A DNA stretch of 64,000 nt, from contig DAIDHK010000002.1 in NCBI GenBank assembly GCA_027459725.1, forward strand, positions 105,866 to 169,865, given 5' to 3'. How positions within the stretch are numbered: position 1 is the first letter of the stretch; each line of letters opens with the position of its first letter. The translations under genes were made by a program, and so were the position numbers. Shown piece after piece: positions 13,924 to 43,361 of this stretch. Source of the stretch: Candidatus Levyibacteriota bacterium (lineage in GTDB: Bacteria; Patescibacteriota; Microgenomatia; Levybacterales; UBA12049). The notes under the pieces were generated by a model. That model was not told where the DNA came from, did no database searches, and was given only the letters and a program-made list of their open reading frames with translations.

Positions 13924-13925
13924 TA

Positions 13926-17743: not shown

Positions 17744-17753
17744 TTCTTGAGAA

Positions 17754-22389: not shown

Positions 22390-23638
22390 GTTCTGTCAAT
22401 TTTAGCTGAATAAGAAGAAAAATCAATACTATAGCCTCGACTAGTAAATTAATTGTGATTATTTGGAAAAAAGAGCGGTGGAATGAATATAGTAAAATGG
22501 CTTGCAGAATAGCTCCTAACAACAATACCATCCATACTGATGTTCTCTTTATTGATAAATATAGATTTACAGTCGTTGAAAGCATGGTATATACTACCAT
22601 CACCAAAGCATAATATCCGACCAAAGATGTAATTGCCAAATAAGCGCTTCTCCTTAAGAATAAACTAATAATAAACTGTGGATATATAGCATAAAAACTA
22701 GCTATGGCAATGGAAAAACCAGTCACCAGCATAAGAGCCAGCCAATAAGTGTTTATATATCTCTCACCTTTCTCCTGCTTTTGTACGATAATCGGAAACA
22801 TGGCCGAGGCGATAGGGCCACTAAAGAAAAAAATGACTCTTCCAAGAAAGGTTAAACCAGCATATAAACCTGCCTGATTTGCAGAAAAAAAATGTTTTAC
22901 CAGAAAAAGATCCGTAGAAATAAATGCGGTCAAGGCCACTAAGGATACTGCTGATTGCCAACTATATGATAATAAATTTGCCGGATGTATCTCATGCAAC
23001 TCTTTTGGGTGAGTACGTAAAAAACTCATTGGAATAAAAGTAAGCAGATAGGCAATCAAAAAGGCAAATAGAATTCCATATGCTACTCCCTCAAGGCCCC
23101 AACCCAGTAGAAACGCACCCAATGTGAAGCAGAATTTCATAACAGCGGACATAAAATTAATACTTGTAAGATAAAAGAATGACAGCCTCGCTTGTAAGAA
23201 TGCTTGGTTAATTACACTTAAGGATGAAACTACAATTATTAATAGTGCCAATATCAATAAAGGAGTTGAAGTAATATGAAAAAATGATTTTAAAGCAGGA
23301 AGAGACAGAGTTGATAGTATAAATAGAAGAAAAATTACAGGTAATGCAAATGAATAGATAGTTACAAAAAATCCTTTAACCTTCCCCAATTCTTGTTTCA
23401 CAAACATTCCCCCGGTATAACTGACAATAATCAAGTTTAAGAAGCTAAAAGCAAAACCAGGTAGGTTGATAAAAGCCAAAAGCAAAGCTAATACTCCATA
23501 TTGATCTAATGGGAGCCGAGAAACCATCTGCTGGTTGAAAAGAAAGTTGACCAGGTTGGCTAAAAAACTACCAAGTAAAATTATACTACTCCCGGAAATA
23601 AGAGGATTATTGTATATCCGGCTGATGTGTTGTTTCAT
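22370..23638 (-). CDS. Wzx-like (MOP superfamily) polysaccharide flippase
   Basis: 422 aa and 12-14 TM. Its general organisation matches 46635..48086. The N-terminus overlaps the upstream gene, so the true start is probably internal. Confidence 0.65.
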   Translation of the reverse strand: MKQHISRIYNNPLISGSSIILLGSFLANLVNFLFNQQMVSRLPLDQYGVLALLLAFINLPGFAFSFLNLIIVSYTGGMFVKQELGKVKGFFVTIYSFALPVIFLLFILSTLSLPALKSFFHITSTPLLILALLIIVVSSLSVINQAFLQARLSFFYLTSINFMSAVMKFCFTLGAFLLGWGLEGVAYGILFAFLIAYLLTFIPMSFLRTHPKELHEIHPANLLSYSWQSAVSLVALTAFISTDLFLVKHFFSANQAGLYAGLTFLGRVIFFFSGPIASAMFPIIVQKQEKGERYINTYWLALMLVTGFSIAIASFYAIYPQFIISLFLRRSAYLAITSLVGYYALVMVVYTMLSTTVNLYLSIKRTSVWMVLLLGAILQAILLYSFHRSFFQIITINLLVEAIVLIFLLIQLKLTEHGKSSL

Positions 23639-24692
23639 AGACTTTTTTATATACTGCTACTGTTTCCCGGGCAGTTTTCTCCCAGGAATAATTTTTTGCT
23701 TGTTGTAAACCTTTCAAAGAAAGCTGCTTTTGTAATTCGTTTGATGTAAAAACTTTCTGTATCCCTTTTATGATATCATTTTCATCCTCTCCATTGATAT
23801 ATAGACATGAGTCACCTGCTATTTCTTGTAATGATCCATTTTTAGTAGTTACAACAGGACATCCACATTGCATTGCTTCTAATACCGGTAAACCAAAACC
23901 TTCATAAAGTGACGGGAAAACAAAACAGCTAGCGAGATTATACAATTTTACTAAATCCTCAGTCGGAACGAAACCAATTTTATAAATATTTTTAATATTG
24001 TTTAGTTCTGTATTCAGCATATGTAAATCGTGATTCCAGATATTTGTCTTATCATAATTCTCTGAGGTCAAAGCCTTCCCTACCATCACAAGCGGAATAT
24101 ATGTCTTGGCAACTGCTTTTATTAGTCGTGGTAAATTCTTGTTCCACGTTACATCCCCAACATAAAGCATAAATTTTTGCGGCAAACTATATTTTTTTAG
24201 TATTTCATTTTTCTGTACTTGGTTTAAAGGCTCTTTCCTAAATACCTTGTCAGCAGCAAGGTAAACCACATGCACTTTTACTGGATCAAAACCTAATATT
24301 GAAATAATATCTTTCTTTGATGATTCAGAATCAGTAATAATAGCATCTGCTTTTTTGACTAAAAACTTTTGTGCTTGCCATTTTAAATTGCCCTTAATCC
24401 CTACAGGAAAATGCTCCTGAAAAACAACAGGAGTTAAATCATGGATAGTCACTATAAAAGGTGCTTTTTTAAATTTAGGTAAATGTACAAAAAACGGATC
24501 AAAATATGGTATGTGCAAAATATCTGCCGATTGTGGATAGTCAGACAAGTCTTCAATAAAAATATACTTATTATTTGGGAAATATTTAACTAATGACCCT
24601 TTTAGGTTTTGAACGTAAAAACCAACTCCCCTGACTTTATGTTGAGACTCTTTAGTTGAGCTAATTGGAGAGATATCCAGAGCGATGTTCAT
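23607..24692 (-). CDS. GT4 glycosyltransferase
   Basis: EGFGLPVLEAM motif. Confidence 0.8.
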   Translation of the reverse strand: MNIALDISPISSTKESQHKVRGVGFYVQNLKGSLVKYFPNNKYIFIEDLSDYPQSADILHIPYFDPFFVHLPKFKKAPFIVTIHDLTPVVFQEHFPVGIKGNLKWQAQKFLVKKADAIITDSESSKKDIISILGFDPVKVHVVYLAADKVFRKEPLNQVQKNEILKKYSLPQKFMLYVGDVTWNKNLPRLIKAVAKTYIPLVMVGKALTSENYDKTNIWNHDLHMLNTELNNIKNIYKIGFVPTEDLVKLYNLASCFVFPSLYEGFGLPVLEAMQCGCPVVTTKNGSLQEIAGDSCLYINGEDENDIIKGIQKVFTSNELQKQLSLKGLQQAKNYSWEKTARETVAVYKKVYETTHQPDIQ

Positions 24693-24699
24693 AACTAAG

Positions 24700-25668
24700 T
24701 TAGCTATTCTTTTTATGCCAATCCCAAGCAGTAGAGATTATTGTTTCCAGGTCTGAATATTCAGGTAAAAAACCTAAGATATTCTTAGATTTTGTGTTAT
24801 CAGCATAAATAGCAGGAGCATCACCGAATCTTCGAGGTTTAAAAACAATAGGCACTTGTTTATCTGTAATTTTTTCAATCGTGGAAATAACTTCTTTATT
24901 TGAATATCCATGCCCAGTTCCCAAATTAAAGCTATCGCTAGTCTTATCTCTGGCCATTTTTTGCAGTGCCAAACTATGAGCAGTTGCTAAATCTTCTACA
25001 TGTATATAGTCTCTAATACAAGTACCATCAGGGGTATCATAATCATTGCCATACAATTCAAACTCTCTTCTCTTACCTAACGCAACCTGAAGTGCAATTG
25101 GAATAATATGGGTTTCAGGATTATGATTTTCTCCCAGACTTGCATCCAATGCTGCTCCTGAAGCGTTGAAATAACGCAATATAATCGATTTTATGCCAAA
25201 TATCTTATCATACCAACCCAACATCTTCTCAAACATCAATTTAGACTCTCCGTAGACATTTTCTGTATTGAAAGGGTCAGCTTCACTAACGGGCAATTTT
25301 TTTGGTTGTCCAAATACCGTACAGCTTGAAGAGAAAACAATGGAGGGAACTTTACTTGCCACCATATACTCTAAAAGATTCAAACCCCCATTCAAATTGC
25401 TATAGAAATATTTGTAGGGATTTTGCATTGACTCTCCAACATATGCATAAGCAGCAAAATGGATAACACCATCAAATTTCTTATCTTTCAATGAATTGAA
25501 CAAAAACTCCTTATCTGTCAAATCACCAACTATAAGTGGACAATTAACGCTTTCTTTATGTCCGTAAACTAGGTTATCAAAAACAGTTACGTTATGCCCT
25601 TCTTTAAGTAGTCTTTTAACTGTAATACTTCCAATATAACCCGCTCCGCCCGTTACCAAAATATTCAT
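24700..25668 (-). CDS. galE: UDP-glucose 4-epimerase
   Basis: MNILVTGGAGYIGS Rossmann motif, the YGESK catalytic YxxxK, and length and end motifs typical of GalE. Confidence 0.9.
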   Translation of the reverse strand: MNILVTGGAGYIGSITVKRLLKEGHNVTVFDNLVYGHKESVNCPLIVGDLTDKEFLFNSLKDKKFDGVIHFAAYAYVGESMQNPYKYFYSNLNGGLNLLEYMVASKVPSIVFSSSCTVFGQPKKLPVSEADPFNTENVYGESKLMFEKMLGWYDKIFGIKSIILRYFNASGAALDASLGENHNPETHIIPIALQVALGKRREFELYGNDYDTPDGTCIRDYIHVEDLATAHSLALQKMARDKTSDSFNLGTGHGYSNKEVISTIEKITDKQVPIVFKPRRFGDAPAIYADNTKSKNILGFLPEYSDLETIISTAWDWHKKNS

Positions 25669-25674
25669 AATATC

Positions 25675-25689
25675 CTTATTGTAGCAAAT
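25675..25689 (-). promoter_or_regulatory. Extended -10 promoter element TGCTACAAT 9 nt upstream of the galE ATG
   Basis: Minus-strand ATTTGCTACAATAAG. The identical 15-mer recurs at 43300..43314 upstream of another operon head. A CTGACA -35-like hexamer lies 17 bp upstream. Confidence 0.4.
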
Positions 25690-25777
25690 ATAATTATAGA
25701 TGTCAGGATAAAGTGAGTTGGTTTAGTCCAACCTTGTATAACAATAATCTGGCTGGTAGTATATATAAATATCTGAG

Positions 25778-27268
25778 ATGAAAATAATTTACTATCTGAA
25801 ACGAAAAATAAAAAAAATAGACCATAAATTTGTTATTCCGTCTGGTTTGATAATCCTTTTCGCTGCTGCTATTAGATTCTATAACTTCCAAAATCAATGG
25901 ATTCTATGGACTGATCAGGCTTCATTTGCTCTGTTAACAAGATATGCTCTTTTTAACTTTAAACTACCCTTACTTGGTCAATTTACCTCAGCAGGTCCTT
26001 TTCAAGTTGGTGGAGAGTGGTATTGGTTTTTGATGATTGGACAGGCATTATATCCTTTCTCTTTTCTCTCACAATGGGTATGGCTAATATTACTCTATAT
26101 TCTTTTCGTTATAGTGATAATGTACTTTGCGAAACAATTAGTTGATAAAAAGTTTGCGTTGATAGTTGGTGTAATAACTGCATTTTCCCCAGCAGAAATT
26201 TATCAAGGTTTTAACCTTGAAAACCTCTCTCCAATTCCTTTTTTATCACTTTTAGCTATGGTTTTTTCTATTAGATATATACGCAAAAGTAATAGTCTAG
26301 ATTTATACTTACTTGCCTTGATTTGTGGACTAGCTCCTGCATTCCACCCTCAAGGCTTTGCTCTATTATTATTGCTCGCAACCACTTTAATACTCAAAGG
26401 TAAACCGAAATGGGTATATTTATTATGCATTCCTCTTCTCTTATTGCCGTGGCTACCTGTCTTTATCGCAGACTCTCAAAATCATTTTCATAACACTCAA
26501 AATATGATTAATTATTATTTATTCGGGCAGAATAAAATTCCACTTGATGTTTTAGGTCGAAGGTGGTCTACTTATCTTGGTGTTTTTATACCCCAATCGT
26601 GGGCATATATTGTAGGTGGATGGCCAATTTTAGCCTATTTGACCATGTTGGGAATATTATTACTAACCGTTTATAACGCTCTAAAACTCAAATTAACAAA
26701 AGAATGGTTGGTAATAATATTATCCTTCTTAATGATACTAACTCTTTTCCGATACTCACATGTCCCGCTCTTCGGTACTTATCTGCTAACCCTACACCCA
26801 TATATTATACTATTGACTGGTTATCTTATATATTTTCTGATAAACAGATATTTTCTTATAGGAATTATAAGCCTAATTATTCTAACTATTGGAAGTTTTT
26901 ACAAATATTCTAAGGGACTCGTTTCTGAAAACTACAATGCCCTTCAGGTATCTAATCTGGAAAAAGTCTTAGTAGATAAGTATCCCCACCAATCGTTTGC
27001 CATTTATGATTATCAAGATAGCGCCGTAGGTATAAGTGAAGCACTATCTCTCTACCTCTACAATGATAATAAGATTGATGATAAGGGTAAGAAAATAGGA
27101 ATAACAACCAGACAAACAGATAACTTATATAATATTTATACAGATAAAAAAGGATATACCTTAGAAGATCTCTCTGAATCAAATGATTCTAAACTAAATT
27201 CAAAAGAATGGGATTTAGTAAATCCGAGTTCAATTTATCATAAAGTGCAGGAATGGTTCAAAAATTAG
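25778..27268 (+). CDS. Polytopic membrane protein, uncharacterised GT-C-like family A (paralogs 28559 and 30021)
   Basis: 496 aa. The N-terminal loop motif TDQASF...PLLGQFTSAGPFQVGGEWYW is shared with D..RD...GP..G...FGPWYY in both paralogs. Confidence 0.6.
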   Translation: MKIIYYLKRKIKKIDHKFVIPSGLIILFAAAIRFYNFQNQWILWTDQASFALLTRYALFNFKLPLLGQFTSAGPFQVGGEWYWFLMIGQALYPFSFLSQWVWLILLYILFVIVIMYFAKQLVDKKFALIVGVITAFSPAEIYQGFNLENLSPIPFLSLLAMVFSIRYIRKSNSLDLYLLALICGLAPAFHPQGFALLLLLATTLILKGKPKWVYLLCIPLLLLPWLPVFIADSQNHFHNTQNMINYYLFGQNKIPLDVLGRRWSTYLGVFIPQSWAYIVGGWPILAYLTMLGILLLTVYNALKLKLTKEWLVIILSFLMILTLFRYSHVPLFGTYLLTLHPYIILLTGYLIYFLINRYFLIGIISLIILTIGSFYKYSKGLVSENYNALQVSNLEKVLVDKYPHQSFAIYDYQDSAVGISEALSLYLYNDNKIDDKGKKIGITTRQTDNLYNIYTDKKGYTLEDLSESNDSKLNSKEWDLVNPSSIYHKVQEWFKN

Positions 27269-27700
27269 CAAAAATGAATAGTAACTTTTCCCTGTTTGCC
27301 AAAGTAAAACAAAAAATAGTAATGAAAGTGAAGCAAACAGAGCCACGAAGGAATGCTGCATTAGAATTGTTGAACTATCTATTAACTGTGGAGAAAAAAC
27401 AGACAGGATTAACATTATTAGAAATCCCAATCTCCCGCTTTAACGAAAACCTATTAAAGACAGGACAACTAAGGTAGATACAGCACATATTCCTAATATA
27501 ATCCATGGTCCATAAAAAGTAGGGAAAATTACAAGTCCAAGCATAATTGACCATAAATAAACAGGCCCGAAAACAAAAGGCCCAGCTGAGCTGAAAGAAC
27601 CAATAAGTGGGATTGAATGTCTCATTATTGCTTCTTTAGCAATTGATAAGTCACGTCCGTTATCAACACCTATTTGAATTCAGTAAAGAAAGTTATCTAA
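27230..27700 (-). pseudogene. Frameshifted, decayed inverted copy of the N-terminal region of a family-A membrane protein
   Basis: Minus-strand fragments IGVDNGRDLSIAKEAIMRHSIPLIGSFSSAGPFVFGPVYLWSIML... (preceded by a TGA) and, in another frame, ILSVFSPQLIDSSTILMQHSFVALFASLSL. They parallel residues ~45-160 of 25778..27268. Confidence 0.45.
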
Positions 27701-27795
27701 ACGAAGATAGAGAGCAATGATTACAATAATTGTTACAAGGATATAAATCTAATTTTTCTTATGAAAAATGTAATGCCTGGATAGCCTTAGACTCT

Positions 27796-28557
27796 TCACT
27801 TCATTTTCAAATACTTTCGATATGCCATGGGAAAACGAAGTGCAGAGAATAAAGAGAAAACAAATCCCTGCCATCCGTCCATAAAACCTTTATGCCTACC
27901 ATAGGTTAGTACAAACCACCAAGCTGGTTTAAAAAACGAGTAGTTTATAAACGTAAAAAAGCTTTTACTAGTATTACTTTCTGCTAATTCATCTGCAATA
28001 CGATCAGTATATCGATTTAGTCTTAATAAATAACGTTTAAATTCAGGGTCTGAGAGATGAATCATAGGCTCTTGCAGATATCCAACTTTACCTTCAACTA
28101 TTGCCTGCTCATGAACATCTTTTAAAGCAAAATGAACCTTCCCTTTTCTATAGAGCCTTAACTGATAATCTGGATATACACCACCCTTCATTAAATAACG
28201 TCCTAAATACCAATTTTTACGCGGTATCCAATAACCATTAAATTTATTATCATCGTTTATTAGAATATCTCTAATTTCTTTTTCTAATGCAGGTGTGATT
28301 CTTTCATCTGCATCCAGATTGAGAATCCAGTCTTTTGTTGCCATATCAATTGCTTTCTGGCGATTGATTAAAAATATTGGCGGATTATCTGTAATTTTTA
28401 TTTTTGCTCCATATTTTTTTGCTATTTGTACAGTTTTGTCCTTTGATGTACCATCTACTACAATAATTTCATCGGCGATACCCTTTATAGATTCAAGACA
28501 ATCAATCAAGTTATTCTCTTCATTATATGTAGAAGTTATAAAAGAAAGTTTTTTCAT
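27796..28557 (-). CDS. GT2 glycosyltransferase (DADE-motif subgroup)
   Basis: LSFITSTYNEENNL and ILNLDADERI. Paralog of 43362..44111. Confidence 0.75.
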   Translation of the reverse strand: MKKLSFITSTYNEENNLIDCLESIKGIADEIIVVDGTSKDKTVQIAKKYGAKIKITDNPPIFLINRQKAIDMATKDWILNLDADERITPALEKEIRDILINDDNKFNGYWIPRKNWYLGRYLMKGGVYPDYQLRLYRKGKVHFALKDVHEQAIVEGKVGYLQEPMIHLSDPEFKRYLLRLNRYTDRIADELAESNTSKSFFTFINYSFFKPAWWFVLTYGRHKGFMDGWQGFVFSLFSALRFPMAYRKYLKMK

Positions 28558-28558
28558 C

Positions 28559-30019
28559 CTATTTCCTCCATCCCTCTAGTGTATCACTATAAACTATTTC
28601 AGGTGTAATTAATTTCCACCCCTGATTTTGAATATCACTCCTGCTTGTGTGTGTAAGATTTATATTAATAATGGTAGCTGTAATTTTAAGAGGACAATTA
28701 AAATCTGCCATACCTAACCTAGCGCCCGAACCAGTCAGAGATAGCCTATTAGCCTGTAGCAAAAAAAACTCAATTCCCTGTGCATAATTTTGACCTCCCT
28801 TTCCACATGCATATACTGCAATTTTTTTATCGGGATACTGATGCATAAAGTTAAATGCTATAGTCCTCATAGTCAGCTGATCAACCCTAGATCTGAGGGG
28901 AATAATATCCTGTCTAATCATAAAAAATGAAAGAATTATTAATACCAATCCTGTAATAACAAAGCCAAATTTTATATTTTTCATTTTCCAAAGGGCAATT
29001 GCGAAGAAAATGAATATAAAACTATGCAAGTAAAGATAGTAATAATAGTCTCTTTGAGCTATAACGTATCTTAAAACTAAAAAGTTTATTGCAAATGTAA
29101 GCAATAAATACATATATATATGTTTTATTTTTCTCTTAAAAATAATAATCAATAATATAACTGATACGAATAGCAGTATTATTATTCCTCCTATGTAATT
29201 AATACCGAAGATATAAGACCAGAAAGGGAGCCAGAAATGAAATAAATATAACTTCCATCCATTTGGAACATATGGATGGTGTATAGCAAAGTATTCTATC
29301 CCTTTTAAAGTTTGCCCATGACTAAGAAAATTAAAAACAATTAAAGGAATCCATGGGGGCAGGAAACCTGTAATAAAAGCTAATAATCTTTTAAGTATAT
29401 TTTTATTAACAATGACAAAAAATATGATGGGTAGAACAATTAATCCCAGCATTTGATAATGAATATTAATCCCTATGCTTAGTACAAATCCCCAGAGGAA
29501 AAACCACCAGACCGAAGGTTCTTTAGCCAGATATAACTTCACAAATAGCCATATTACAATCACTGAGTATAAAGGAATTAGATCCGGATTGCTCAATCCT
29601 TGAGTTTGGCCTGTTTCAGATGGAGAAACTGCAGCCAAAAATGCCAATAGCAGACCGAACCATTTATTTTCCAGTAATTCACCTATTTTATAAAGAAATA
29701 AACTTACCAGTACTGAAGAAATACCTACCAGATACCAAGCTGAATAATAGAACGGAAAAATTATTTGCCATATAATCATTTGATAGTAATACCAAGGACC
29801 AAATGTTATAGGAGCTATACCAGATGCAGCTCCTACTAGAGGAAAACTAAAGGTTTTAGCTCCATATAAAATTATTAAAGCGTCTCTTGTAGGATCAAAA
29901 TCAAAACCATACCGGGCAGGAGTATTATAGAAGCGAAAGAAGATTGATACGAGGAGTATCAAAACCAAAAGTAGATTCGTTAGACTAAAATATTTTTTCT
30001 CTATAGTATTTATTTTCAT
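28559..30019 (-). CDS. Polytopic membrane protein, family A paralog
   Basis: ORF 28559..30094. The probable start is the internal ATG near 30019 (MKINTIEKKYF), 1 nt after the upstream stop. N-terminal loop FDPTRDALIILYG...GPWYYYQ. Confidence 0.6.
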   Translation of the reverse strand: MKINTIEKKYFSLTNLLLVLILLVSIFFRFYNTPARYGFDFDPTRDALIILYGAKTFSFPLVGAASGIAPITFGPWYYYQMIIWQIIFPFYYSAWYLVGISSVLVSLFLYKIGELLENKWFGLLLAFLAAVSPSETGQTQGLSNPDLIPLYSVIVIWLFVKLYLAKEPSVWWFFLWGFVLSIGINIHYQMLGLIVLPIIFFVIVNKNILKRLLAFITGFLPPWIPLIVFNFLSHGQTLKGIEYFAIHHPYVPNGWKLYLFHFWLPFWSYIFGINYIGGIIILLFVSVILLIIIFKRKIKHIYMYLLLTFAINFLVLRYVIAQRDYYYYLYLHSFIFIFFAIALWKMKNIKFGFVITGLVLIILSFFMIRQDIIPLRSRVDQLTMRTIAFNFMHQYPDKKIAVYACGKGGQNYAQGIEFFLLQANRLSLTGSGARLGMADFNCPLKITATIININLTHTSRSDIQNQGWKLITPEIVYSDTLEGWRK

Positions 30020-30020
30020 A

Positions 30021-31553
30021 TCAGATCTTTCTAGTTTGAACAATGATATGACCCGGAAGGGAAACTTGTTTGATAAGCTTTCCTCGTTTTTCATGAAGAG
30101 AAAGCCATGCCTGCCTTAGTGTAGGATGCGTATTATCTGGTTCTATTATATAAAACAGCAGATGACCATTATTACTGGGTTCATAATATCGTTTCCCATA
30201 AAAAGCGAACAAGTACTCATAAGTATAAGGATGTATAGGCGGTGTATAGACATCATAGTTAAATGGTCTACCAGATGCCTGAGAATAAATATACTTAATT
30301 ACTCCAGCCTGATTGTTATAGATAGAAGGATTGTTGATAAAAAAATCGGTTTTAATAGGCCTATATGAAATTAATACTCCCAGAATATACAATATTACTA
30401 AAACTATAAACAGCTTTGTATAATTATTGCTTTTTTTTCTCAGATAACAGAAAAATTTGTATATGAACAGTAATAATACAATCTCATATACGACTGGAAC
30501 TCCTACCACAAAGTGATCCCATACATTACCCTTAAAAAATGACAGAATTATAATATAAGAGAAAAGATAAGAAAGACTAAATACAATTAGCAGGTTTTCC
30601 ACACTATTAAATTTTGTTTTAGCTTTTAAATAAACTAAACCTAAAATAATAATTATCAAAATAGTAACTGCCAAAATAAACGGCATATTAACTGTTGCTT
30701 GCCATAATTGCAACATTAGACTTACTACTTTCACAAACTGTTCCGAAATTCCCCCCGATTGACTAACAGGAGCATGATGAAAAATATAATTAAACAATGC
30801 TCTAGTCATAAGGTAGTGATGTCTAATCTCAAAAAGAATTCGAGGCAATTCTATAAGCAATAGCCCTAGAATGAAAGCAGTAACATGATGAAAATTAATT
30901 TTGTTTCTTAGATAAATTAGCATAAATATAACGATTGATATAAACTGAATTGAACCATAAACTATCTCTAGTGAGTCAAAACTAAGCGCGCTCAAGATCC
31001 CGATCAGAAACATCCAAGCTGTCTTTTTAAGAGAAGATTTCTCTTCATTAAACTTTATGATCGATACAAGAATAAGTGTCAAAATTAAAGGAGCAATATT
31101 AGGATTCCATATCTGTGAAGAAGTATCTATTAAAGAGCCTGCAATACCAAAGAAAATCATAAATAGAAGTCCAGCCCATTTACCTCCTATTTTTGTACCA
31201 AGCCAGTATGCAAGCAGAACAGTGGCAATTCCAGTTAATCCCATAACAGCATCTATTCCTTTCACACTTCCTGAAAATACTATGAAAAATGGAGTAAGCA
31301 GCCAATACCACCATGGACCATAAAAAATACCCTCCTGTCCGGTTGTTGGACCAATCAGACTAATATGATGTCCATCTACAATTTGAACAATATTAAGCAT
31401 ATCCCTGCCGATATCATAAGTGTAAGCAAAAGTACCGAAAAAAGAACTTTGCAATCTTAAGAACGAGGTGACCAACAAAATTACTATAAATAACACCCAA
31501 TATGTTTTTGTAGACTTAATGAGTGGCATACATAGGTTTAATAAAATTATCAT
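30021..31553 (-). CDS. Polytopic membrane protein, family A paralog
   Basis: 510 aa. N-terminal loop YDIGRDMLNIVQ...IGPTTGQEGIFYGPWWYW. Its N-terminus overlaps the 3' end of 31516..33258. Confidence 0.6.
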   Translation of the reverse strand: MIILLNLCMPLIKSTKTYWVLFIVILLVTSFLRLQSSFFGTFAYTYDIGRDMLNIVQIVDGHHISLIGPTTGQEGIFYGPWWYWLLTPFFIVFSGSVKGIDAVMGLTGIATVLLAYWLGTKIGGKWAGLLFMIFFGIAGSLIDTSSQIWNPNIAPLILTLILVSIIKFNEEKSSLKKTAWMFLIGILSALSFDSLEIVYGSIQFISIVIFMLIYLRNKINFHHVTAFILGLLLIELPRILFEIRHHYLMTRALFNYIFHHAPVSQSGGISEQFVKVVSLMLQLWQATVNMPFILAVTILIIIILGLVYLKAKTKFNSVENLLIVFSLSYLFSYIIILSFFKGNVWDHFVVGVPVVYEIVLLLFIYKFFCYLRKKSNNYTKLFIVLVILYILGVLISYRPIKTDFFINNPSIYNNQAGVIKYIYSQASGRPFNYDVYTPPIHPYTYEYLFAFYGKRYYEPSNNGHLLFYIIEPDNTHPTLRQAWLSLHEKRGKLIKQVSLPGHIIVQTRKI

Positions 31554-33258
31554 TAAGCAGTGTGGTAATCACACTGTTTACATCATCTTTGTTAATAAAC
31601 ATATCTATATCAAGACTATATTTACTATTCTGTATTGTGGAGGTATATCTGATATTACCCTGTTGATATTGGCTCAAGGTTATATAATTAGAGTTAAGAA
31701 AATTCATAAAATAAGAACCATATTTAGTTGGGTCAGAGCCTAATATAAAATAACCCCTCTGGAAAAATATCACTTTAGGTTTATGAGCAGATATCTCAGA
31801 GATAAAACTATTTTGTATTCTTTGCGACTTACCCATTCCAGGTATTAAAATATGATATTTAGAAGCCAGTTTGCCAGTAGCATAGTAATAATCTTGAAAA
31901 TCAAGCGGCCCCATCCAAATATAATCATTTGGCCCTGAAACGGCGTTGTTTATATTGACTGCAGGATCATAAGTATCATAGATTCTTGGTGCAGTACCCA
32001 TATACTTTCCATATGCTTTACCTAAAAATCTATCTGTCAGCATAGCAATACTAAAAAAACTATAGATTAAACATAAGCTAAGAAGACCTGAAAGTATTAT
32101 CTTTTTACCTAATGCAATTTGAAGATGAAGCTCATTATATAAAGCAGAAAGGACATATACCAGAGAAATTAAAGACATGAAAATATATACGCTTGATTGA
32201 TAATCAGTTTCTCCAGAATTAAGGGGATTAGACCTTGCATTGGAATAAATCATAAAAATTATGATAAAGACAAACAAAGAATAATTTCTTCTAAAAAAGA
32301 CATAAACCAATAATGATAGATCTACTACTGCCAATGTTATGTTTAATGGGAATGGAAAATTAAAATTCTTTACTTGCACTAACAATGTATAGAAATTACT
32401 GTAAAAATTGTATGCCATTACTATGGCAAAACGAATAGGATTAATATGACCATTATGAAGATTAGGATAATTGTATATATAATACTTTTCATTAAATATG
32501 ATTGATTGATAAATATAATCTGACAAACTTCCTGTCAAAAGCAAATAAATCATAAAGACTACATAAGGAATGGCAAGGATTATGAATAAATTCACTATTT
32601 TTTTTAAATTTAAGTTGTTACGATAATCCTGAAAATAAGCCAAAAGTAAAAAAAAGTAGATAAAGGCACAAAGATAAATGTCTGTCAGTGTATTTAAAAC
32701 TGTTAATGCATTAAAAATTGAAATAATCCAAATATCTCTAAAATTTATTTTTTCTTTATAAATATATTTGAGTAGAAAAAAAACGAAAATTGCTCCCATT
32801 AAATATCCACTTAAGCTGTCTGCAATTAGCATGTGAGCCCAAAAATATGTTGCAGCAATCCCTATTAACAAAGAAAAATACAAATAAAACTTTGTAGCAA
32901 TCACACCAAAACGCGATTTCAAATATAAATACCATAAAAAAATGAATAAACTCAAGAAAATTCCATAAACAACTCTGAATCTGACAAAAGAATGGCCACT
33001 AAAGATTTGCACAAAGGCAGAAACAAAATAAGCAACAGGGCCATGATGACTAAAAAAACCACTAAAAGGCAGAACCCCATGAAGGATATACCAACCTCCT
33101 AAGAGATTATCGAATTCATCAGGATATGTTTCGTGAAAGGCGTTGATATAAAAAAGTATTAAAGTAATCGCAAAAATTACCCACTCGAAACCTGATATTC
33201 TTATACTTTTTAATCTTATTAGAATCTTATTGTTTCCAACTTTTGTAAATAAATTCAT
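31516..33258 (-). CDS. Polytopic membrane protein (GT-C-like, family unassigned)
   Basis: 580 aa. N-terminal TM region with a PDEFDN loop, then a C-terminal hydrophilic domain of ~180 aa. Confidence 0.5.
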   Translation of the reverse strand: MNLFTKVGNNKILIRLKSIRISGFEWVIFAITLILFYINAFHETYPDEFDNLLGGWYILHGVLPFSGFFSHHGPVAYFVSAFVQIFSGHSFVRFRVVYGIFLSLFIFLWYLYLKSRFGVIATKFYLYFSLLIGIAATYFWAHMLIADSLSGYLMGAIFVFFLLKYIYKEKINFRDIWIISIFNALTVLNTLTDIYLCAFIYFFLLLAYFQDYRNNLNLKKIVNLFIILAIPYVVFMIYLLLTGSLSDYIYQSIIFNEKYYIYNYPNLHNGHINPIRFAIVMAYNFYSNFYTLLVQVKNFNFPFPLNITLAVVDLSLLVYVFFRRNYSLFVFIIIFMIYSNARSNPLNSGETDYQSSVYIFMSLISLVYVLSALYNELHLQIALGKKIILSGLLSLCLIYSFFSIAMLTDRFLGKAYGKYMGTAPRIYDTYDPAVNINNAVSGPNDYIWMGPLDFQDYYYATGKLASKYHILIPGMGKSQRIQNSFISEISAHKPKVIFFQRGYFILGSDPTKYGSYFMNFLNSNYITLSQYQQGNIRYTSTIQNSKYSLDIDMFINKDDVNSVITTLLNDNFIKPMYATH

Positions 33259-33259
33259 A

Positions 33260-34936
33260 TTAACCCTTTATGACAAAAATTGCCGGTTGATTATTTAAAT
33301 AATCAATAGTTTTCAGTATATTATCTCCTTTTGTAATTTGATTTGCTCCTATTACGTATAGATATCCTTTAACCGGCTGTTTTAATTCTCTCACACTTAT
33401 CGGTCTAAATTCAAATTTTCCAAAAGCATGGTCCTGCGTATAATGTGAACCTAGTGTTTCAGAAATGTGTTGATACCTTGAGGGAGGATATTTGAGATAA
33501 AACAAAAAGAAAATATAGGACTGATCAAGAGGGACAGCATTTGATACGATAATCTTTTTATAATTATTCTGTTGAGATTGCAGATAAGGGACTAACTTTG
33601 CGTATCCATACTGCCAATCCTGGGAATTGTAATAATTATATTGTACAAAATAGTTATCTAAATAAAATGCCACATTAAACATTAAGACTAAAATAAAAAC
33701 AGCTAGAGCAAATAAGCTTATTTTTTGTCCATACTTATTTTTAATAAATTCAAATGAGGTTAATAAACCCAGAGAAATAAAGATCTGAAAAGTTGGTAAA
33801 AAATTAAGAGTTCTGACTGCATGAGGAACCTCTATAGTTACGCTTGCAGGAACGGGAGAGAGCAAAAACCATCCGAAAATAAGCCATTTTGAACGTCTAT
33901 CTACGTTCAAATAAAATAACGAATAAATACCGATAAGCAGGAATACGAAATCAGATAGATATATTAGCCCCATCTGTGGGGCATGATGCCTGGGAGCAGT
34001 ATTATCCGGCATTAGCAGCCAATTGGGATTGAAATGCATCAGGTAATTCGAAAGAATTTGTTCCGTAAGTATAACTTTTCGGTTATCTAATAATAAGCCT
34101 AATACATCATGATTTTGTTTATCCTGCAAATTTTCCATTGGAGTCATACCAAGGAGCCAAGTAACAGGTTTAGCATAAGGATTGTAAGTGGCAAAAATAT
34201 CAGTTGCAGTCAGTCTTTCTAGAGATTTTGAGTTTGAGATAGTAAATATCACCATTGGAGCAGAAAAAATAATACCGGTAACGATCAGTGCTAAAAGAAT
34301 TTTCCGGGATTTTAGTAAGATTTGTTTGTTAAAAATAATAACCAGTAACAGAAATATAAGAGGAGAAAAGACTTTTTCACTCTGATAGATATATAGATTT
34401 AATGCTGCACAAATCACAGACAGATATAAAAACCATGTTTTTTTTAAACCTTTTAAAAAGAATAGTACCGTTAATACAACAAATGTGTCACCTAACGCTG
34501 CTTCAAAAGCTACCCGGCTGAATTGCAAACTCCAAGGAGATATTGCAAGAAAAAAACTGGATAACAAAGCTAATTTTTTTCTTTTGAATAATTCGTCAAC
34601 TAAAAAGTAAGTTGCAATAACCGCCACTACACCCATTATTGCACCTGGCAAACGTACGGCAAAAACACTTAAACCAAACATAGCAATACTTGGAATTGCA
34701 AGATATGAATATAAAGCTGGTTTATAATCACCAAAGGATTCAATTACTGGAGGTAAGAACTTTCCATATTCATCATGACCAGTCATTAGTATCGAATAAG
34801 CATTATAACCAAGAGATGCTTCATCCCAATCTGGAGAGATAGGAACATTACCCAGCTGATAAAAACGTAATAGTATTGCAATTAGAACAATAAATGAAAT
34901 CAAGTAATAATGATAATATTTTTTAAAATGTTTCAT
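33260..34936 (-). CDS. GT39-family (ArnT/PMT-like) polyprenyl-P-sugar-dependent glycosyltransferase
   Basis: PDWDEASLGYNAYSILMTGHDEYGKFLP loop-1 signature. ~11 TM plus a C-terminal periplasmic domain. Confidence 0.8.
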   Translation of the reverse strand: MKHFKKYYHYYLISFIVLIAILLRFYQLGNVPISPDWDEASLGYNAYSILMTGHDEYGKFLPPVIESFGDYKPALYSYLAIPSIAMFGLSVFAVRLPGAIMGVVAVIATYFLVDELFKRKKLALLSSFFLAISPWSLQFSRVAFEAALGDTFVVLTVLFFLKGLKKTWFLYLSVICAALNLYIYQSEKVFSPLIFLLLVIIFNKQILLKSRKILLALIVTGIIFSAPMVIFTISNSKSLERLTATDIFATYNPYAKPVTWLLGMTPMENLQDKQNHDVLGLLLDNRKVILTEQILSNYLMHFNPNWLLMPDNTAPRHHAPQMGLIYLSDFVFLLIGIYSLFYLNVDRRSKWLIFGWFLLSPVPASVTIEVPHAVRTLNFLPTFQIFISLGLLTSFEFIKNKYGQKISLFALAVFILVLMFNVAFYLDNYFVQYNYYNSQDWQYGYAKLVPYLQSQQNNYKKIIVSNAVPLDQSYIFFLFYLKYPPSRYQHISETLGSHYTQDHAFGKFEFRPISVRELKQPVKGYLYVIGANQITKGDNILKTIDYLNNQPAIFVIKG

Positions 34937-34937
34937 A

Positions 34938-36584
34938 CTAATCAGTATATGCCACTAAAGCCACACTACCGTCTAAATTATCAAATTTTTTCTGAACTTT
35001 TGCATTAGTAGGTACCTTGTCTGGTACATCAATGTATAGTACTTTTTTATTTTTATTAGGCATAGACTGTAAATTACTACCAAAATAATACTTGCCAAAA
35101 CTCTCTATAGTCACAAAGCCAAAGGCATCTCTGTGAATGACTGCCTCTTTACGATAAAGAGAAGGTGGTGTCTGCATATAGAAAAGATAATAAATATACG
35201 GCCTACCTAAAGAGTTTGTCATATCAATTTGGTTATAGCTACTCTGTACAGAACTAACATACGCCACCGTTTGTTCATATCCATATTGCCACTCCTGAGA
35301 ATATTCATAGGGGTAATGGGTAATATAACTGTGAATAAACTTAGTCATCTCAAAAAGCATTAATAATCCAAGCAAAAACAGAATGGTTTTACCACTGATA
35401 TATTTTGCAAATTTTTTATCTCTAATAAAAAGGATAAACTCTACCAGTCCATAAGCAATAATAATTTGATATGTCGGCAAGATGACTTCCGTCCTCAGAG
35501 CATGAGGGGTTTCACGAGCTGTAGAAGCTGGTATCAAACCTATTAAAATCCAGATAGGTATTATCCACCAATAATCTTTTTTTTGTCTAAATAACAAGAT
35601 CAAACCCAGTATGAGGAAAGGAATACACCAGATAAAAAGCTCTCCTGTCGTCTGGATAGAAAATTTGGGATTATAATCACCTTTAAAGAAAAGATAAGAG
35701 GGATTAAATTCATCAAGATAATGTTGTATGAATGCTTGAGTGTAAAATACTCTTCTGTTATGAATTATTTTACTCCACCAGGCGTTATGATCATTGGCTA
35801 TTTCCTGATTGCTGGTTTGAACCAGGCTGGGATCACTAAAAATATTAACCTCGTCAAATCTTATTTTTGCTTGAGGAGAAAGTAAAAAGGGCACAACAGG
35901 AGCAAGTAAAATAATACCTAATAATATCGCTAAAATCATTTGCTTTTTTCTGGTAAAAAATTTCTTCCATAAAAATAAAGCCAAAACAATAATAAAAATC
36001 GGCAAAAAAACACGCGGAGAGTTAAAAGTATAAAATGGAACTACTAAAAGTACTGCCGCTAATAAAAGCAACCACTTTCGTTCCTGCAATCCCGCCAGAA
36101 GAGCCCACATCCCGGATATTATGAAGAAAGTGGCCACATTCGCTTCAAAGGCTGCCCTTGAAAGCATAATATTCCAGGGAGAAATTGCTAAAACAAAACT
36201 TGAAAAGATGGCATACAAATATTTTTTCTTGCTGTTAGGAAATAAACGCAGGACTAGAAAATAAGTAAAAAACACCGAACCAATGCCTGCCAGAGCGGAA
36301 GGCAAACGGGTAGAAAACCTATCTAGTCCTAACACCTTGACTGGCAAAACATCCAAATATGCATAAACTGGTGGTTTGTAATCCCCAAAGGATTCAAGAT
36401 ATGTCACTGGCAAGAATTTACCAAACTCATCTTTCCCATCAATCCCGATGGTATATGCATTGTATCCCCAAGCTGCCTCATCCCAAGTCAGTTCAGGTGG
36501 ATTATTCCCTAATCCAATTATACGCAGTAGTGCTGCCACTACTGTAATAATTATTAGAATAATAATGTATCTATTTATCTTCAT
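34938..36584 (-). CDS. GT39-family glycosyltransferase (tandem paralog)
   Basis: LTWDEAAWGYNAYTIGIDGKDEFGKFLP. Confidence 0.8.
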   Translation of the reverse strand: MKINRYIIILIIITVVAALLRIIGLGNNPPELTWDEAAWGYNAYTIGIDGKDEFGKFLPVTYLESFGDYKPPVYAYLDVLPVKVLGLDRFSTRLPSALAGIGSVFFTYFLVLRLFPNSKKKYLYAIFSSFVLAISPWNIMLSRAAFEANVATFFIISGMWALLAGLQERKWLLLLAAVLLVVPFYTFNSPRVFLPIFIIVLALFLWKKFFTRKKQMILAILLGIILLAPVVPFLLSPQAKIRFDEVNIFSDPSLVQTSNQEIANDHNAWWSKIIHNRRVFYTQAFIQHYLDEFNPSYLFFKGDYNPKFSIQTTGELFIWCIPFLILGLILLFRQKKDYWWIIPIWILIGLIPASTARETPHALRTEVILPTYQIIIAYGLVEFILFIRDKKFAKYISGKTILFLLGLLMLFEMTKFIHSYITHYPYEYSQEWQYGYEQTVAYVSSVQSSYNQIDMTNSLGRPYIYYLFYMQTPPSLYRKEAVIHRDAFGFVTIESFGKYYFGSNLQSMPNKNKKVLYIDVPDKVPTNAKVQKKFDNLDGSVALVAYTD

Positions 36585-38299: not shown

Positions 38300-38322
38300 A
38301 TATTATGCATAACAGGAATTGT

Positions 38323-39980: not shown

Positions 39981-39994
39981 ACTTTTAATTCACT

Positions 39995-43296: not shown

Positions 43297-43299
43297 CTT

Positions 43300-43314: not shown

Positions 43315-43361
43315 TTGCAGTTGTTTATATAAGGAATAACTTCTTAAATCGAAGTTGATGA

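What the first reader, a model, noticed from the sequence alone, without database searches (positions are those of the whole stretch)
25778..31553. Unassigned three-member membrane-protein family (A) with a conserved D-x2-RD ... GP(W)-Y-W loop, plus a decayed inverted copy
The 496-, 511- and 510-aa proteins share an N-terminal loop motif (TDQASF..PLLGQFTSAGPF..EWYW; DPTRDAL...GPWYYY; YDIGRDML...FYGPWWYW). It is reminiscent of GT-C catalytic loops but does not match the GT39 signature. A frameshifted fragment of a fourth copy lies inverted at 27230..27700, convergent with the plus-strand member. This suggests a recent duplication or inversion event.
Basis: seen in the sequence. Interest (0 to 1): 0.5.

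Follow-up and report, generated by a model that had tools for sequence, protein, structure and literature searches.

The report
Divergent GT-C glycosyltransferase paralogs plus pseudogene
These genes are divergent members of a known class of membrane sugar-transferring enzymes, sitting in a very large cell-surface glycan gene cluster of an uncultured, small-genome bacterium, and the "decayed copy" is what remains of one such gene after a different family member replaced most of it; this is ordinary biology, now explained.

Summary

The window holds a further distant member (55467..56804 +). The family has about 950 clusters at 50% identity (E<=1e-30); the named records among the homologues and loci are mostly Patescibacteria.

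The fragment (27266..27802 -) is not frameshifted. It is one frame with three nonsense codons, cut off at codon 178. It is not a copy of A: there is no DNA similarity and about 25% protein identity. It is the ortholog (56-59%) of an intact gene in a syntenic Levyibacteriota genome, from the subfamily coupled or fused to the adjacent GT2. About 1.6 kb carrying A, in reverse orientation, replaces 2.7 kb there. This is non-orthologous cassette replacement, not a recent inverted duplication.

The parts
25778..27268 (+). Member A (496 aa), 'A-type' subfamily of the GT-C family. An intact ORF, and the only plus-strand gene in this part of the cluster.
   Evidence: ORF. PMT_2 18.1 bits, below the cut-off. 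Family HMM 550 bits, but A is in the alignment the HMM was built from. Nearest homologs are 58% (P0057) and 45-49% identical, in other gene contexts.
25691..27295 (.). Non-syntenic segment of about 1.6 kb (gene A, a short 5' leader and almost no 3' flank). It replaces 2.7 kb (L001 12728..15408) of the related genome. Breakpoints are approximate to within about +/-30 nt.
   Evidence: blastn synteny: window 28829..27296 = L001 11194..12727 (72%), and window 25690..24112 = L001 15409..16987 (76%). Junction sequences are shown. No flanking repeats stand out.
27266..27802 (-). Pseudogene: the first ~178 codons of a '525-type' family member. It has three in-frame nonsense codons (TAG 27751-27749, TGA 27682-27680, TAA 27442-27440) and is truncated where gene A's stop codon lies.
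   Evidence: Translation. tblastn with L_525 residues 2-178 gives 56% identity, E=7.7e-50. BLASTP 59%/154 aa, E=1e-54. Stop positions. DNA identity to the ortholog is 64%, against 70-79% for intact neighbours.
27796..28557 (-). GT2 glycosyltransferase (253 aa). It is the conserved partner of the 525-type subfamily: overlapping stop/start (suggesting translational coupling) in the relative, fused in-frame in others. Here it has lost that partner.
   Evidence: PF00535 E=2.6e-20. 84% identity to L_253. In L001 the GT2 ends at 12227 and the 525-aa gene starts at 12224. 55-58% full-length identity to the N-terminal domain of seven proteins of 756-770 aa, whose residues ~255-745 are the family GT-C domain (an eighth two-domain protein, P0241, 731 aa, matched only the GT-C HMM).
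28559..30019 (-). Member B (486 aa from M26; the mechanical ORF runs to 30094), 'B-type' subfamily. This is the protein that was modelled.
   Evidence: PMT_2 27.6 bits, above the gathering score of 26.1. P0001 is 100% identical at 486 aa. AlphaFold2 pLDDT 94.6, pTM 0.93. GT-C fold hits.
30021..31553 (-). Member C (510 aa ORF; the likely start is M9 at 31529). The most divergent of the three, with no Pfam hit.
   Evidence: B-C BLASTP E=3e-15. 73% identity to L_502, aligned from residue 9. No Pfam family.
55467..56804 (+). A further, distant family member (445 aa, lacking the C-terminal soluble domain). Its loop reads FNFDQVNGAW...WPLTGP...APLYYY.
   Evidence: Family HMM 92 bits, E=8.7e-29; this ORF was not in the alignment used to build the HMM. 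hhalign 98.7%, E=1.9e-16. PMT_2 E=4.3e-4.
4556..5485 (-). ArnC/GtrB-like GT2, a candidate polyprenyl-phosphate-sugar synthase that could supply donors to the GT-C enzymes. BLASTP-related GT2s lie at 21643..22389, 38323..39033, 48073..48786 and 58059..58832.
   Evidence: phmmer against PDB: ArnC E=4.1e-37 over residues 2-290, GtrB (sll0501) E=2.5e-24, DPMS E=1.7e-13. Paralog cluster.

Best explanation
**What the proteins are.** A, B, C and the ORF at 55467..56804 are divergent paralogs of one subfamily of GT-C fold (ArnT/PMT/STT3-like) integral-membrane glycosyltransferases. Among the homologues and loci that carry an organism name, most are Patescibacteria (Levyibacteriota, Gottesman-, Roizman- and Woesebacteria); no systematic taxonomic count was made. 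The AlphaFold2 model of B has about 13 membrane-length helices followed by a ~90-residue C-terminal alpha/beta domain.

**Inferred mechanism.**
This is inferred to be the catalytic/acceptor-activating residue.
- A sugar is transferred from a polyprenyl-phosphate-sugar, made at the cytoplasmic face by ArnC/GtrB/DPMS-like GT2 enzymes encoded in the same locus and then flipped across the membrane.
- The acceptor is a cell-surface glycopolymer or protein on the outside of the membrane. Each paralog probably adds a different residue or linkage.

**The fragment.** It is the dead 5' third of a fourth subfamily member, the one that is normally translationally coupled or fused to the GT2 at 27796..28557. 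A gene-sized cassette carrying A, in the opposite orientation, replaced the rest of that gene and a second tandem paralog. The pseudogene then accumulated three nonsense codons, or already had them. The net effect is a swap of glycosyltransferase content in a surface-glycan locus, which implies a change in glycan structure.

**Shown versus inferred.** Shown: homology, fold, motif conservation, synteny break, pseudogene state, GT2 fusion. Inferred: donor, acceptor, catalytic role of the Asp, direction and mechanism of the replacement.
For: **Fold and family**
- hhalign of the family profile against canonical PMT_2 paralogs gives 98.4%, E=1e-14 over 387 columns. The conserved D aligns to the D of WDE.
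- The AlphaFold2 model has pLDDT 94.6.
- Foldseek against PDB: 41 of the 42 matches with E below 0.2 are GT-C glycosyltransferases, the other being the structurally related GPI transamidase subunit. Examples are AglB 3.9e-7, PglB and ArnT (TM 0.57/0.52).
- Pfam PMT_2 is above the gathering score for B and is precomputed on many homologs.

**Motif and family size**
- The family profile finds 949 representatives at E<=1e-30 and 5177 at E<=1e-10.

**Donor supply**
- The GT2 at 4556..5485 resembles ArnC (E=4e-37) and GtrB.
- The GT2 directly upstream of the A-type homolog in L005 resembles DPMS (E=1e-18) and GtrB.
- Wzx-like flippases lie at 22370..23638 and 46635..48086.
- The published model of GT-A + flippase + GT-C 'multi-component transmembrane glycosylation systems' describes a (modified) DxD motif in the GT-C enzymes and includes PMT_2-type enzymes such as GtlB (PMC8035078). 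See also PMC11127046.

**Replacement event**
- Synteny blocks and the gap between them.
- Ortholog identities of 62-89% for the eight other shared genes compared, against 31% for A vs L_522.
- Pseudogene 56-59% identical to L_525.
- Three stop codons.
- No A-versus-fragment DNA similarity.
- The pseudogene subfamily is the GT2-fused subfamily.
- Loci L008 and L010 also have a 525-type gene downstream of the GT2.
Against: **No biochemistry.** No member of this subfamily has been characterised. Donor, acceptor and stereochemistry are unknown.

**Weak sequence link to solved structures.** A sequence-profile search of the PDB found nothing. Placement rests on fold, on profile-profile comparison and on one marginal Pfam score. 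A and C fail the PMT_2 gathering score.

**The adjacent GT2 is ambiguous.** The GT2 that is fused or coupled to the pseudogene's subfamily is closest to GmaR and SunS/ThuS, which are protein/peptide glycosyltransferases (E=1.9e-11 to 1.2e-6, N-terminal half only). It does not match GtrB/DPMS. The simple 'donor synthase + GT-C' reading is therefore not established for that pair.

**Thin basis for polarity.** The direction of the replacement rests mainly on one close relative plus two more distant loci.

**Metagenome-assembled source.** The window very probably comes from a metagenome-assembled genome. Read-level support for the junction and the stop codons could not be checked.

**No compositional signal.** A's GC content (0.327) equals the window mean (0.322), so composition gives no signal of foreign origin.
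Confidence: 0.8

Rival explanations
1. The fragment is a decayed copy produced by a recent inverted duplication of the plus-strand member A, or by a local inversion.
For: The two are adjacent and convergent. The fragment's homology ends within a few nucleotides of A's stop codon. Both belong to the same family.
Against: - There is no nucleotide similarity between the A segment and the fragment (best blastn E=0.35, 14 nt).
- Protein identity between the fragment and A is 24%.
- The fragment is 56-59% identical to a different, intact gene in the syntenic relative and belongs to a different subfamily from A.
- The fragment, not A, has the ancestral orientation.
Confidence: 0.03
2. In-situ inversion. 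A is the ortholog of the relative's 522-aa gene, flipped in place together with deletion of the 3' part of the 525-type gene, and then evolved fast.
For: Among L001 genes, A's best match is L_522 (31%, E=8e-49). The position is equivalent.
Against: - The eight other shared genes compared are 62-89% identical, whereas A-L_522 is 31%.
- L_522's best database matches are the GT2-fused subfamily (P0224, P0221, P0106), not A's subfamily. A's best matches (58%, 45-47%) are a different set.
- blastn of the A segment against L001 gives only a 41-nt match at E=0.002.
Confidence: 0.07
3. Assembly artefact. The junction at about 27270-27296 is a chimeric join in a metagenome-assembled contig, and the stop codons are sequencing errors. 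The real genome would then have an intact gene.
For: The source is very probably a MAG. All homologous records are MAGs, and the database proteins identical to A, B, C and 55467..56804 are each recorded on one 204,891-bp NCBI contig with no cluster-mates at 90% identity.
Against: - Synteny with the relative resumes precisely on the far side of A, at the epimerase promoter region. A chimeric join would have to be two joins that neatly excise 2.7 kb.
- Three different substitution-type nonsense codons fall within 121 codons, while the other ~45 ORFs over 60 kb are intact.
- The fragment's DNA divergence is elevated: 64% against 70-79%.
Confidence: 0.05
4. The proteins have a GT-C fold but are not glycosyltransferases that use polyprenyl-phosphate monosaccharides. 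They could be oligosaccharyltransferases using polyprenyl-diphosphate glycans, polymerase/ligase-like enzymes, or non-catalytic membrane scaffolds.
For: - The top Foldseek hits are OSTs (AglB, STT3, PglB).
- The 'RD' part of the motif is variable.
- The fused GT2 partner resembles protein/peptide glycosyltransferases.
Against: - Profile similarity is to PMT_2, not STT3.
- The acidic EL1 residue is conserved (55/55 as D or E). R29, H187, Q189 and R317 are conserved at 90% or more, which argues for catalysis.
- The small ~90-aa C-terminal domain differs from the OST periplasmic domain with its WWDYG motif. No such motif was seen in the consensus.
Confidence: 0.1

Closest known systems
Pfam PF13231 PMT_2 / COG1807 ArnT-like GT-C glycosyltransferases (for example ArnT, PDB 5EZM/5F15; Listeria GtlB)
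   Same: - Profile-profile homology to canonical PMT_2 paralogs in the same locus (98.4%).
- The conserved Asp at the start of the first external loop aligns with the D of WDE, and an 'SP' motif aligns with ISPW.
- Similar length (~490-510 aa), with about 13 helices plus a small C-terminal extracytoplasmic domain.
- They sit in loci with ArnC/GtrB-like GT2s.
   Different: - No DE dipeptide. The loop reads D-x-x-[R/H/S]-[D/F]-A-L and is followed by a family-specific P-L-x-G-P-F-S-S-A-G-P-F-x-F-G-P-W-Y-Y-W segment.
- Only B passes the Pfam gathering score.
- No sequence-level hit to any solved structure.
- Lipid A, ArnT's acceptor, is not to my knowledge made by Patescibacteria, so the acceptor should differ.
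CAZy GT39 protein O-mannosyltransferases (PMT; PF02366; Pmt1/2/4, actinobacterial Pmt)
   Different: No PF02366 hit for A, B or C, whereas neighbours 33260..34936 and 52133..53836 do hit it. No DE motif. No MIR-domain insertion (protein length ~500 aa).
Three-component / multi-component transmembrane glycosylation systems (GtrA/B/C, CsbB-GtcA-YfhO, GacI/J/K/L; PMC8035078, PMC11127046)
   Same: The locus has the three classes of component: a GT-A (GT2) polyprenyl-P-sugar synthase candidate, Wzx-type flippases and GT-C transferases. Tight GT2 to GT-C gene coupling is seen in relatives.
   Different: - The scale is far larger: roughly 18 GT-C-like genes in one ~58-kb locus.
- No GtrA-type small flippase was identified.
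- The GT2 fused to the 525-type subfamily is GmaR/SunS-like rather than GtrB-like.
- Nothing is experimentally characterised.
Mycobacterial cell-wall GT-C sets (EmbA/B/C, AftA-D, PimE)
   Different: Weaker structural match than to ArnT/ALG12/PMT. No decaprenyl-phospho-arabinose pathway genes were identified. Different phylum.

Membership tests
GT-C fold glycosyltransferases (GT-C_A class: ArnT, PMT, STT3/PglB/AglB, ALG9/12) | Polytopic membrane protein whose structure superposes on solved GT-C enzymes | tested here: met
   [not shown]
GT-C fold glycosyltransferases (GT-C_A class) | Conserved acidic residue (DxD, DE or a modified form) in the first extracytoplasmic loop after TM1 | tested here: met
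   D42 (B numbering from M26) is D in 52/55 and E in 3/55. It lies just after the TM1 helix 13-30 in the model. It aligns to the invariant D of WDE in canonical paralogs.
GT-C fold glycosyltransferases (GT-C_A class) | Uses a polyprenyl-phosphate-linked sugar donor on the extracytoplasmic side | not testable with these tools
   Indirect evidence only: ArnC/GtrB/DPMS-like GT2 genes in the window and directly upstream of A-type homologs, and Wzx-like flippases.
Pfam PF13231 (PMT_2) | Whole-protein score at or above the gathering score of 26.1 bits | tested here: inconclusive
   B 27.6 bits (met). A 18.1 bits (not met). C has no hit. 55467..56804 scores 21.0 bits (not met). Many homologs carry precomputed PF13231. 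hhalign to canonical PMT_2 paralogs gives 98.4%.
CAZy GT39 / Pfam PF02366 (PMT protein O-mannosyltransferase) | PF02366 match and a DE motif in loop 1 | tested here: not met
   No PF02366 hit for A, B or C at E<=1, while neighbouring paralogs do hit it. The residue after the conserved D is Q/P/A, not E.
ArnT (GT83, undecaprenyl-phosphate-L-Ara4N:lipid A transferase) | Match to a curated ArnT model; lipid A acceptor | tested here: not met
   No NCBIfam model was matched above cut-off by A, B or C. The best hits had E of 0.37-0.97 to unrelated models. From established knowledge, Patescibacteria are not known to make lipid A.
Pseudogene (for 27266..27802) | Homology to an intact gene elsewhere, plus disabling lesions | tested here: met
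   56% identity to residues 2-178 of the intact 525-aa ortholog. Three in-frame stops. The remaining ~347 codons are absent from the window and are replaced by non-syntenic DNA.
Three-component extracytoplasmic glycosylation system | Dedicated GT2 polyprenyl-P-sugar synthase + flippase + GT-C encoded together | tested here: inconclusive
   All three component classes are present in the locus, and there is GT2 to GT-C coupling or fusion. However, the GT2 adjacent to B and the pseudogene is closest to GmaR/SunS, not GtrB/DPMS, and no GtrA-type flippase was found.

The most novel reading that the evidence does not exclude
The family, including its GT2-fused form, could be a GT-C lineage largely confined to Patescibacteria that merits its own CAZy family. 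Its features would be a remodelled first-loop active site (single Asp, followed by the PLxGPFSSAGPFxFGPWYYW segment). The GmaR/SunS-like GT2 domain fused to its N-terminus would make it a bifunctional enzyme that glycosylates a protein or peptide substrate on both sides of the membrane, rather than a donor-synthase/transferase pair. The cassette swap seen here would then be a snapshot of rapid surface-glycan diversification in episymbiotic bacteria.
Probability: 0.15. Interest if true: 0.55.

Novelty: new member of a known kind. Interest (0 to 1): 0.25.

Why it matters
**Annotation.** The result removes a false 'unassigned family'. These are GT-C glycosyltransferases of the ArnT/PMT_2 kind. 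The fragment is a pseudogene left by a gene replacement, not evidence of a recent inverted duplication.

**Biology.** The modest point of interest is the context. A small-genome Levyibacteriota devotes about 58 kb to surface-glycan synthesis, with roughly 18 GT-C-like enzymes. Comparison with one close relative catches a swap of GT-C content: two '525-type' genes are lost and one 'A-type' gene is gained in reverse orientation. This is the kind of event expected to change surface glycan structure, and so possibly host attachment or phage recognition. The recurrent in-frame fusion of the neighbouring GT2 to this GT-C subfamily gives a concrete, testable functional pairing in an uncultured group whose envelope glycobiology appears little studied (four full-text searches found nothing specific to it).

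Tried and rejected
1. Sequence-profile search of all PDB chains with the family alignment found only spurious hits to a 1-TM protein (E>=0.065). The canonical-paralog profile also found nothing. The link to solved structures therefore had to come from fold comparison.
2. NCBIfam gave no usable hit for A, B or C.
3. Recent duplication is rejected.
4. A search for direct or inverted repeats at the replacement boundaries found only short, chance-level repeats. A promoter/terminator scan was no better than shuffles: 11 sites against 11.9 expected. No transposase, integrase or tRNA lies at the junction.
5. GC content shows no foreign-DNA signal for A.
6. Alternative genetic code or readthrough was considered for the in-frame stops. 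It is rejected because all three stop codon types occur, the other window ORFs are long under table 11, and the gene body is missing anyway.
7. The look-up of encoding contigs could not locate the window's own record for P0001.
8. The afdb50 fold library was unavailable.
9. Four literature searches for GT-C or glycosyltransferase expansions in Patescibacteria/CPR returned nothing specific. Only general GT-C and three-component-system papers were found.


Full report
**1. What is at the coordinates**

The region holds three long ORFs:
- A = 25778..27268 (+), 496 aa.
- B = 28559..30094 (-), 511 aa. A 100% identical database entry, P0001, is 486 aa, so the real start is probably M26 at 30019.
- C = 30021..31553 (-), 510 aa. 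Its 502-aa ortholog aligns from residue 9.

Pairwise BLASTP confirms homology of A with B (23% over 474 aa, E=9e-23) and of B with C (25% over 247 aa, E=3e-15). A and C are not significantly similar on their own (E=0.48). They are joined through B and through the family profile.

**2. The loop motif**

I aligned A, B and C with 52 homologs from two database searches. Counts are given in B numbering from M26.
- Invariant or nearly invariant: R29 (55/55), D42 (52 D + 3 E), P60 (54), G63 (55), G74 (53), Y78 (51), W95 (52).
- Further along the protein, conserved at 90% or more: S132, H187, Q189, P225, W255 and R317.
A and its nearest relatives have DQASF instead.

The robust signature is therefore R-F-Y-N ... 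D-x-x-x-x-A-L ... P-L-x-G-P-F-S-S-A-G-P-F-x-F-G-P-W-Y-Y-W. Only the first Asp is a conserved acidic residue.

**3. The family is not unassigned**

Sequence-level evidence:
- Pfam PMT_2 (PF13231) hits B at 27.6 bits (gathering score 26.1) and A at 18.1 bits. C has no hit.
- Many homologs carry a precomputed PF13231 assignment. Some sources call them '4-amino-4-deoxy-L-arabinose transferase-like glycosyltransferase' or 'glycosyltransferase family 39 protein'.
- I compared the family profile with a profile of the canonical PMT_2 paralogs in the same and related loci. hhalign gives 98.4% probability and E=1e-14 over 387 columns. The conserved D aligns to the invariant D of the canonical W-D-E motif, and the family's A-V-S-P aligns to the canonical I-S-P-W.
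- A sequence-only profile search of the PDB found nothing real.

Structural evidence:
- An AlphaFold2 model of B built on the alignment is confident: pLDDT 94.6, pTM 0.93.
- By Foldseek, 41 of the 42 matches with E below 0.2 are GT-C glycosyltransferases, the other being the structurally related GPI transamidase subunit. Examples are AglB 3.9e-7, STT3, PglB, ArnT (TM 0.57/0.52), ALG9 and Pmt4.
- The model shows a TM1 helix (residues 13-30), an external loop with a helix starting at D42, about a dozen further membrane-length helices, and a small alpha/beta domain at residues ~400-486.

Family membership:
- The proteins are not GT39 in the strict sense. There is no PF02366 hit and no DE dipeptide.
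- No curated ArnT model matches.

**4. Size and spread of the family**

A profile search of 1.84 billion representative proteins finds 949 at E<=1e-30, 5177 at E<=1e-10 and 17,237 at E<=1e-3. The last figure includes the wider PMT_2 superfamily.

Named records among the homologues and loci are Patescibacteria: Levyibacteriota, Gottesman-, Roizman- and Woesebacteria. The closest genome in the species-representative collection is a Candidatus Levyibacteriota MAG (DAIDHL010000001.1).

Within the window the family HMM also picks up 55467..56804 (+), 445 aa, at 92 bits (E=9e-29; hhalign 98.7%). Its loop reads FNFDQVNGAW...WPLTGP...APLYYY. 'Three-member' is therefore an undercount.

**5. The fragment**

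On the minus strand, 27802..27266 translates in a single frame to:

...VKSLRLSRHYIFHKKN*IYILVTIIVIIALYLRLDNFLY*IQIGVDNGRDLSIAKEAIMRHSIPLIGSFSSAGPFVFGPVYLWSIML...LIGFR*SGRLGFLIMLILSVFSPQLIDSS...LLWQTGKSYYSFLL

It carries the family loop (D-N-G-R-D ... P-L-I-G-S-F-S-S-A-G-P-F-V-F-G-P-V-Y-L-W). It matches A, B and C at E=2.6e-16, 1.3e-18 and 4.9e-13, but with only 22-26% identity.

There is no frameshift. There are three in-frame nonsense codons: TAG at 27751-27749, TGA at 27682-27680 and TAA at 27442-27440. The first and third correspond to W and L in the intact ortholog. Homology stops at codon ~178, within a few nucleotides of A's stop codon. The rest of the gene is nowhere in the window.

**6. 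Where the fragment came from**

The B ortholog P0003 lies on a 265-kb Levyibacteriota contig (L001). On that contig every called gene in the 21-kb stretch fetched is on one strand, in this order:
- four PMT_2 genes
- a 580-aa gene
- C' (502 aa)
- B' (487 aa)
- GT2 (253 aa)
- a 525-aa gene
- a 522-aa gene
- an epimerase
- a GT4
- a flippase
- a GT2

Ortholog identities to the window are 62-89% for eight genes: 572/580/502/487/253/322/360/427/248-aa products. Examples are GT2 84%, epimerase 89%, B 64% and C 73%.

The fragment is the ortholog of the 525-aa gene: 59% over 154 aa, E=1e-54, and 56% over 179 aa.

At the DNA level, window 28829..27296 aligns with L001 11194..12727 (72%), and window 25690..24112 aligns with L001 15409..16987 (76%). 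Between these blocks, 1605 bp of the window (25691..27295, containing A on the opposite strand) stand in place of 2681 bp of L001. The L001 stretch holds the 3' two-thirds of the 525-aa gene and the whole 522-aa gene.

A is only 31% identical to the 522-aa protein. A's nearest relatives (58% P0057, then 45-49%) form a different subfamily and lie in other contexts. P0057, for example, sits between a DUF2079 gene and a 561-aa gene. L_525, L_522 and the pseudogene share best hits (P0224, P0221, P0106), so they form another subfamily.

The A segment and the fragment share no nucleotide similarity (best E=0.35). Two further Levyibacteriota/Patescibacteria loci (L008, L010) also have a 525-type gene downstream of the GT2.

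My reading is that the co-directional GT2 to 525-type to 522-type arrangement is ancestral. A gene-sized cassette carrying an A-type paralog replaced most of it in the window's lineage. The fragment's DNA identity to its ortholog (64%) is below that of the intact neighbours (70-79%), as expected for relaxed constraint.

No boundary repeats, mobile-element genes or compositional anomaly were found. The mechanism of the replacement is therefore unknown. Homologous or illegitimate recombination with DNA from a related organism is an inference.

**7. The GT2 link**

In L001 the GT2 stop overlaps the start of the 525-aa gene (12227 against 12224).

In seven sequences (loci L029, L032, L037, L047; proteins P0106, P0111, P0221) the GT2 is fused in frame to the GT-C domain. 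These proteins are 756-770 aa. Residues 1-255 are 55-58% identical to the window's GT2 over its full length, and residues ~255-745 match the family HMM at 391-439 bits. An eighth two-domain protein, P0241 (731 aa), matched the GT-C HMM at residues 253-731, but its N-terminal part gave no reported BLASTP match to the GT2. These fused proteins are the pseudogene's closest relatives after its direct ortholog: 41-47% identity for the fused ORFs of the four loci, and P0221, P0106 and P0111 among its best database hits.

So the gene that died in this window was the dedicated partner of the GT2 at 27796..28557. That GT2 is still intact and is 84% identical to its ortholog.

What this GT2 does is unresolved. 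Its nearest solved relatives are GmaR (E=1.9e-11) and the S-glycosyltransferases ThuS/SunS, matching only over the N-terminal nucleotide-sugar-binding half. GtrB and DPMS do not appear at E<=1e-3.

Other GT2s fit the donor-synthase role better:
- The GT2 at 4556..5485 is ArnC-like over its full length (E=4e-37) and GtrB-like (E=2.5e-24). It has four paralogs in the window.
- The GT2 immediately upstream of an A-type homolog in L005 is DPMS/GtrB-like (E=1e-18).

**8. Context**

Positions 1 to about 58,800 form one glycan locus, almost entirely on the minus strand. It contains:
- about 13 GT2 genes and about 8 GT4 genes
- methyltransferases, a hexapeptide acyltransferase and an epimerase
- two Wzx-type flippases
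- roughly 18 GT-C-like membrane proteins: PMT_2/PMT types, YfhO, PTPS_related/STT3-like, GT87, an AftD-like 1173-aa protein, and several with no Pfam hit

This fits the published scheme of multi-component transmembrane glycosylation: a GT-A enzyme makes C55-P-sugar, a GtrA- or Wzx-type flippase moves it across the membrane, and a GT-C enzyme with a (modified) DxD motif transfers it outside the membrane (PMC8035078; see also PMC11127046).

**9. Proposed mechanism**

Inferred steps:
- Each family member sits in the membrane with its N-terminus inside.
- It binds a flipped polyprenyl-phosphate sugar.
- It uses the conserved first-loop Asp to activate or position the acceptor hydroxyl of an extracytoplasmic glycopolymer or protein. 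R29, H187, Q189 and R317 are candidate phosphate/donor ligands.

Shown here: fold, homology, motif conservation, gene linkage and fusion, pseudogene state, and the synteny break. Not shown: donor, acceptor, catalysis.

**10. Verdict**

The finding is real but ordinary. These are divergent members of a known enzyme class in a lineage where the class is heavily expanded, plus a pseudogene left by a non-orthologous gene replacement.

Novelty: new member of a known kind. Interest is low to moderate. It rests mainly on the recurrent GT2 to GT-C fusion and on the visible swap of glycosyltransferase content between close relatives.

Noticed in passing
window 1..58832: Nearly the whole window is one minus-strand glycan locus. 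It holds about 13 GT2 genes, about 8 GT4 genes, 2 Wzx-like flippases, 3 methyltransferases, an acetyltransferase, an epimerase and roughly 18 GT-C-like membrane proteins. That is a striking investment for a Patescibacteria genome.
   Followed up: partly
L029:7995-10277, L032:7995-10277, L037:8001-10313, L047:8001-10298; P0106, P0111, P0221, P0241: Recurrent in-frame fusion of the 253-aa GT2 to the 525-type GT-C subfamily, giving proteins of 731-770 aa. The GT2 domain is closest to GmaR and SunS/ThuS protein/peptide glycosyltransferases rather than to GtrB/DPMS. The functional logic of the fusion is therefore not the textbook donor-synthase/GT-C pair.
   Followed up: partly
window 31516..33258 (-), 44114..45742 (-), 15989..17743 (-), 5555..7642 (-): Four large membrane-protein ORFs (542-695 aa) have no Pfam hit. 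31516..33258 and 44114..45742 are weakly related to each other (E=1e-5). 5555..7642 is related to the AftD-like 1173-aa protein at 7914..11435 (E=6e-14). 15989..17743 is weakly related to a PMT_2 paralog. They are probably further unrecognised GT-C enzymes.
   Followed up: no
window 3794..4333 (-) and 2658..3791 (-): A 179-aa ORF containing only the N-terminal Glyco_transf_4 domain sits directly upstream of a full-length GT4. It shares a 39-aa stretch (41% identity) with it. This may be a split or truncated GT4, that is, another gene remnant in the locus.
   Followed up: no
window 48783..50477 (-) and 50474..52129 (-): Tandem paralogs (30% identity over 546 aa) hit PTPS_related, STT3 N-terminal and YfhO models. 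They are another GT-C subfamily, with an STT3-like N-terminal region.
   Followed up: no
loci L012, L013, L018, L020, L024, L029 and others: Many MAG records carrying this clearly Levyibacteriota/Patescibacteria-type locus are titled 'uncultured Gammaproteobacteria bacterium'. One is titled 'Eisenbacteria', one 'Limnocylindrales' and one 'Saccharimonadales'. These are probably placeholder or wrong taxonomic labels in the public records.
   Followed up: no
window 25678..25706 (-): A conserved promoter-like element (CTGACA-17-TACAAT with an upstream TG) lies in front of the epimerase gene. It is retained in both the window and L001, right at the edge of the replaced segment.
   Followed up: partly
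window 58950..59022 (+), 59310..60497 (+): A tRNA gene and an AAA_14/DUF4143 ATPase gene mark the end of the glycan locus. Beyond about 60.5 kb there are few long ORFs.
   Followed up: no
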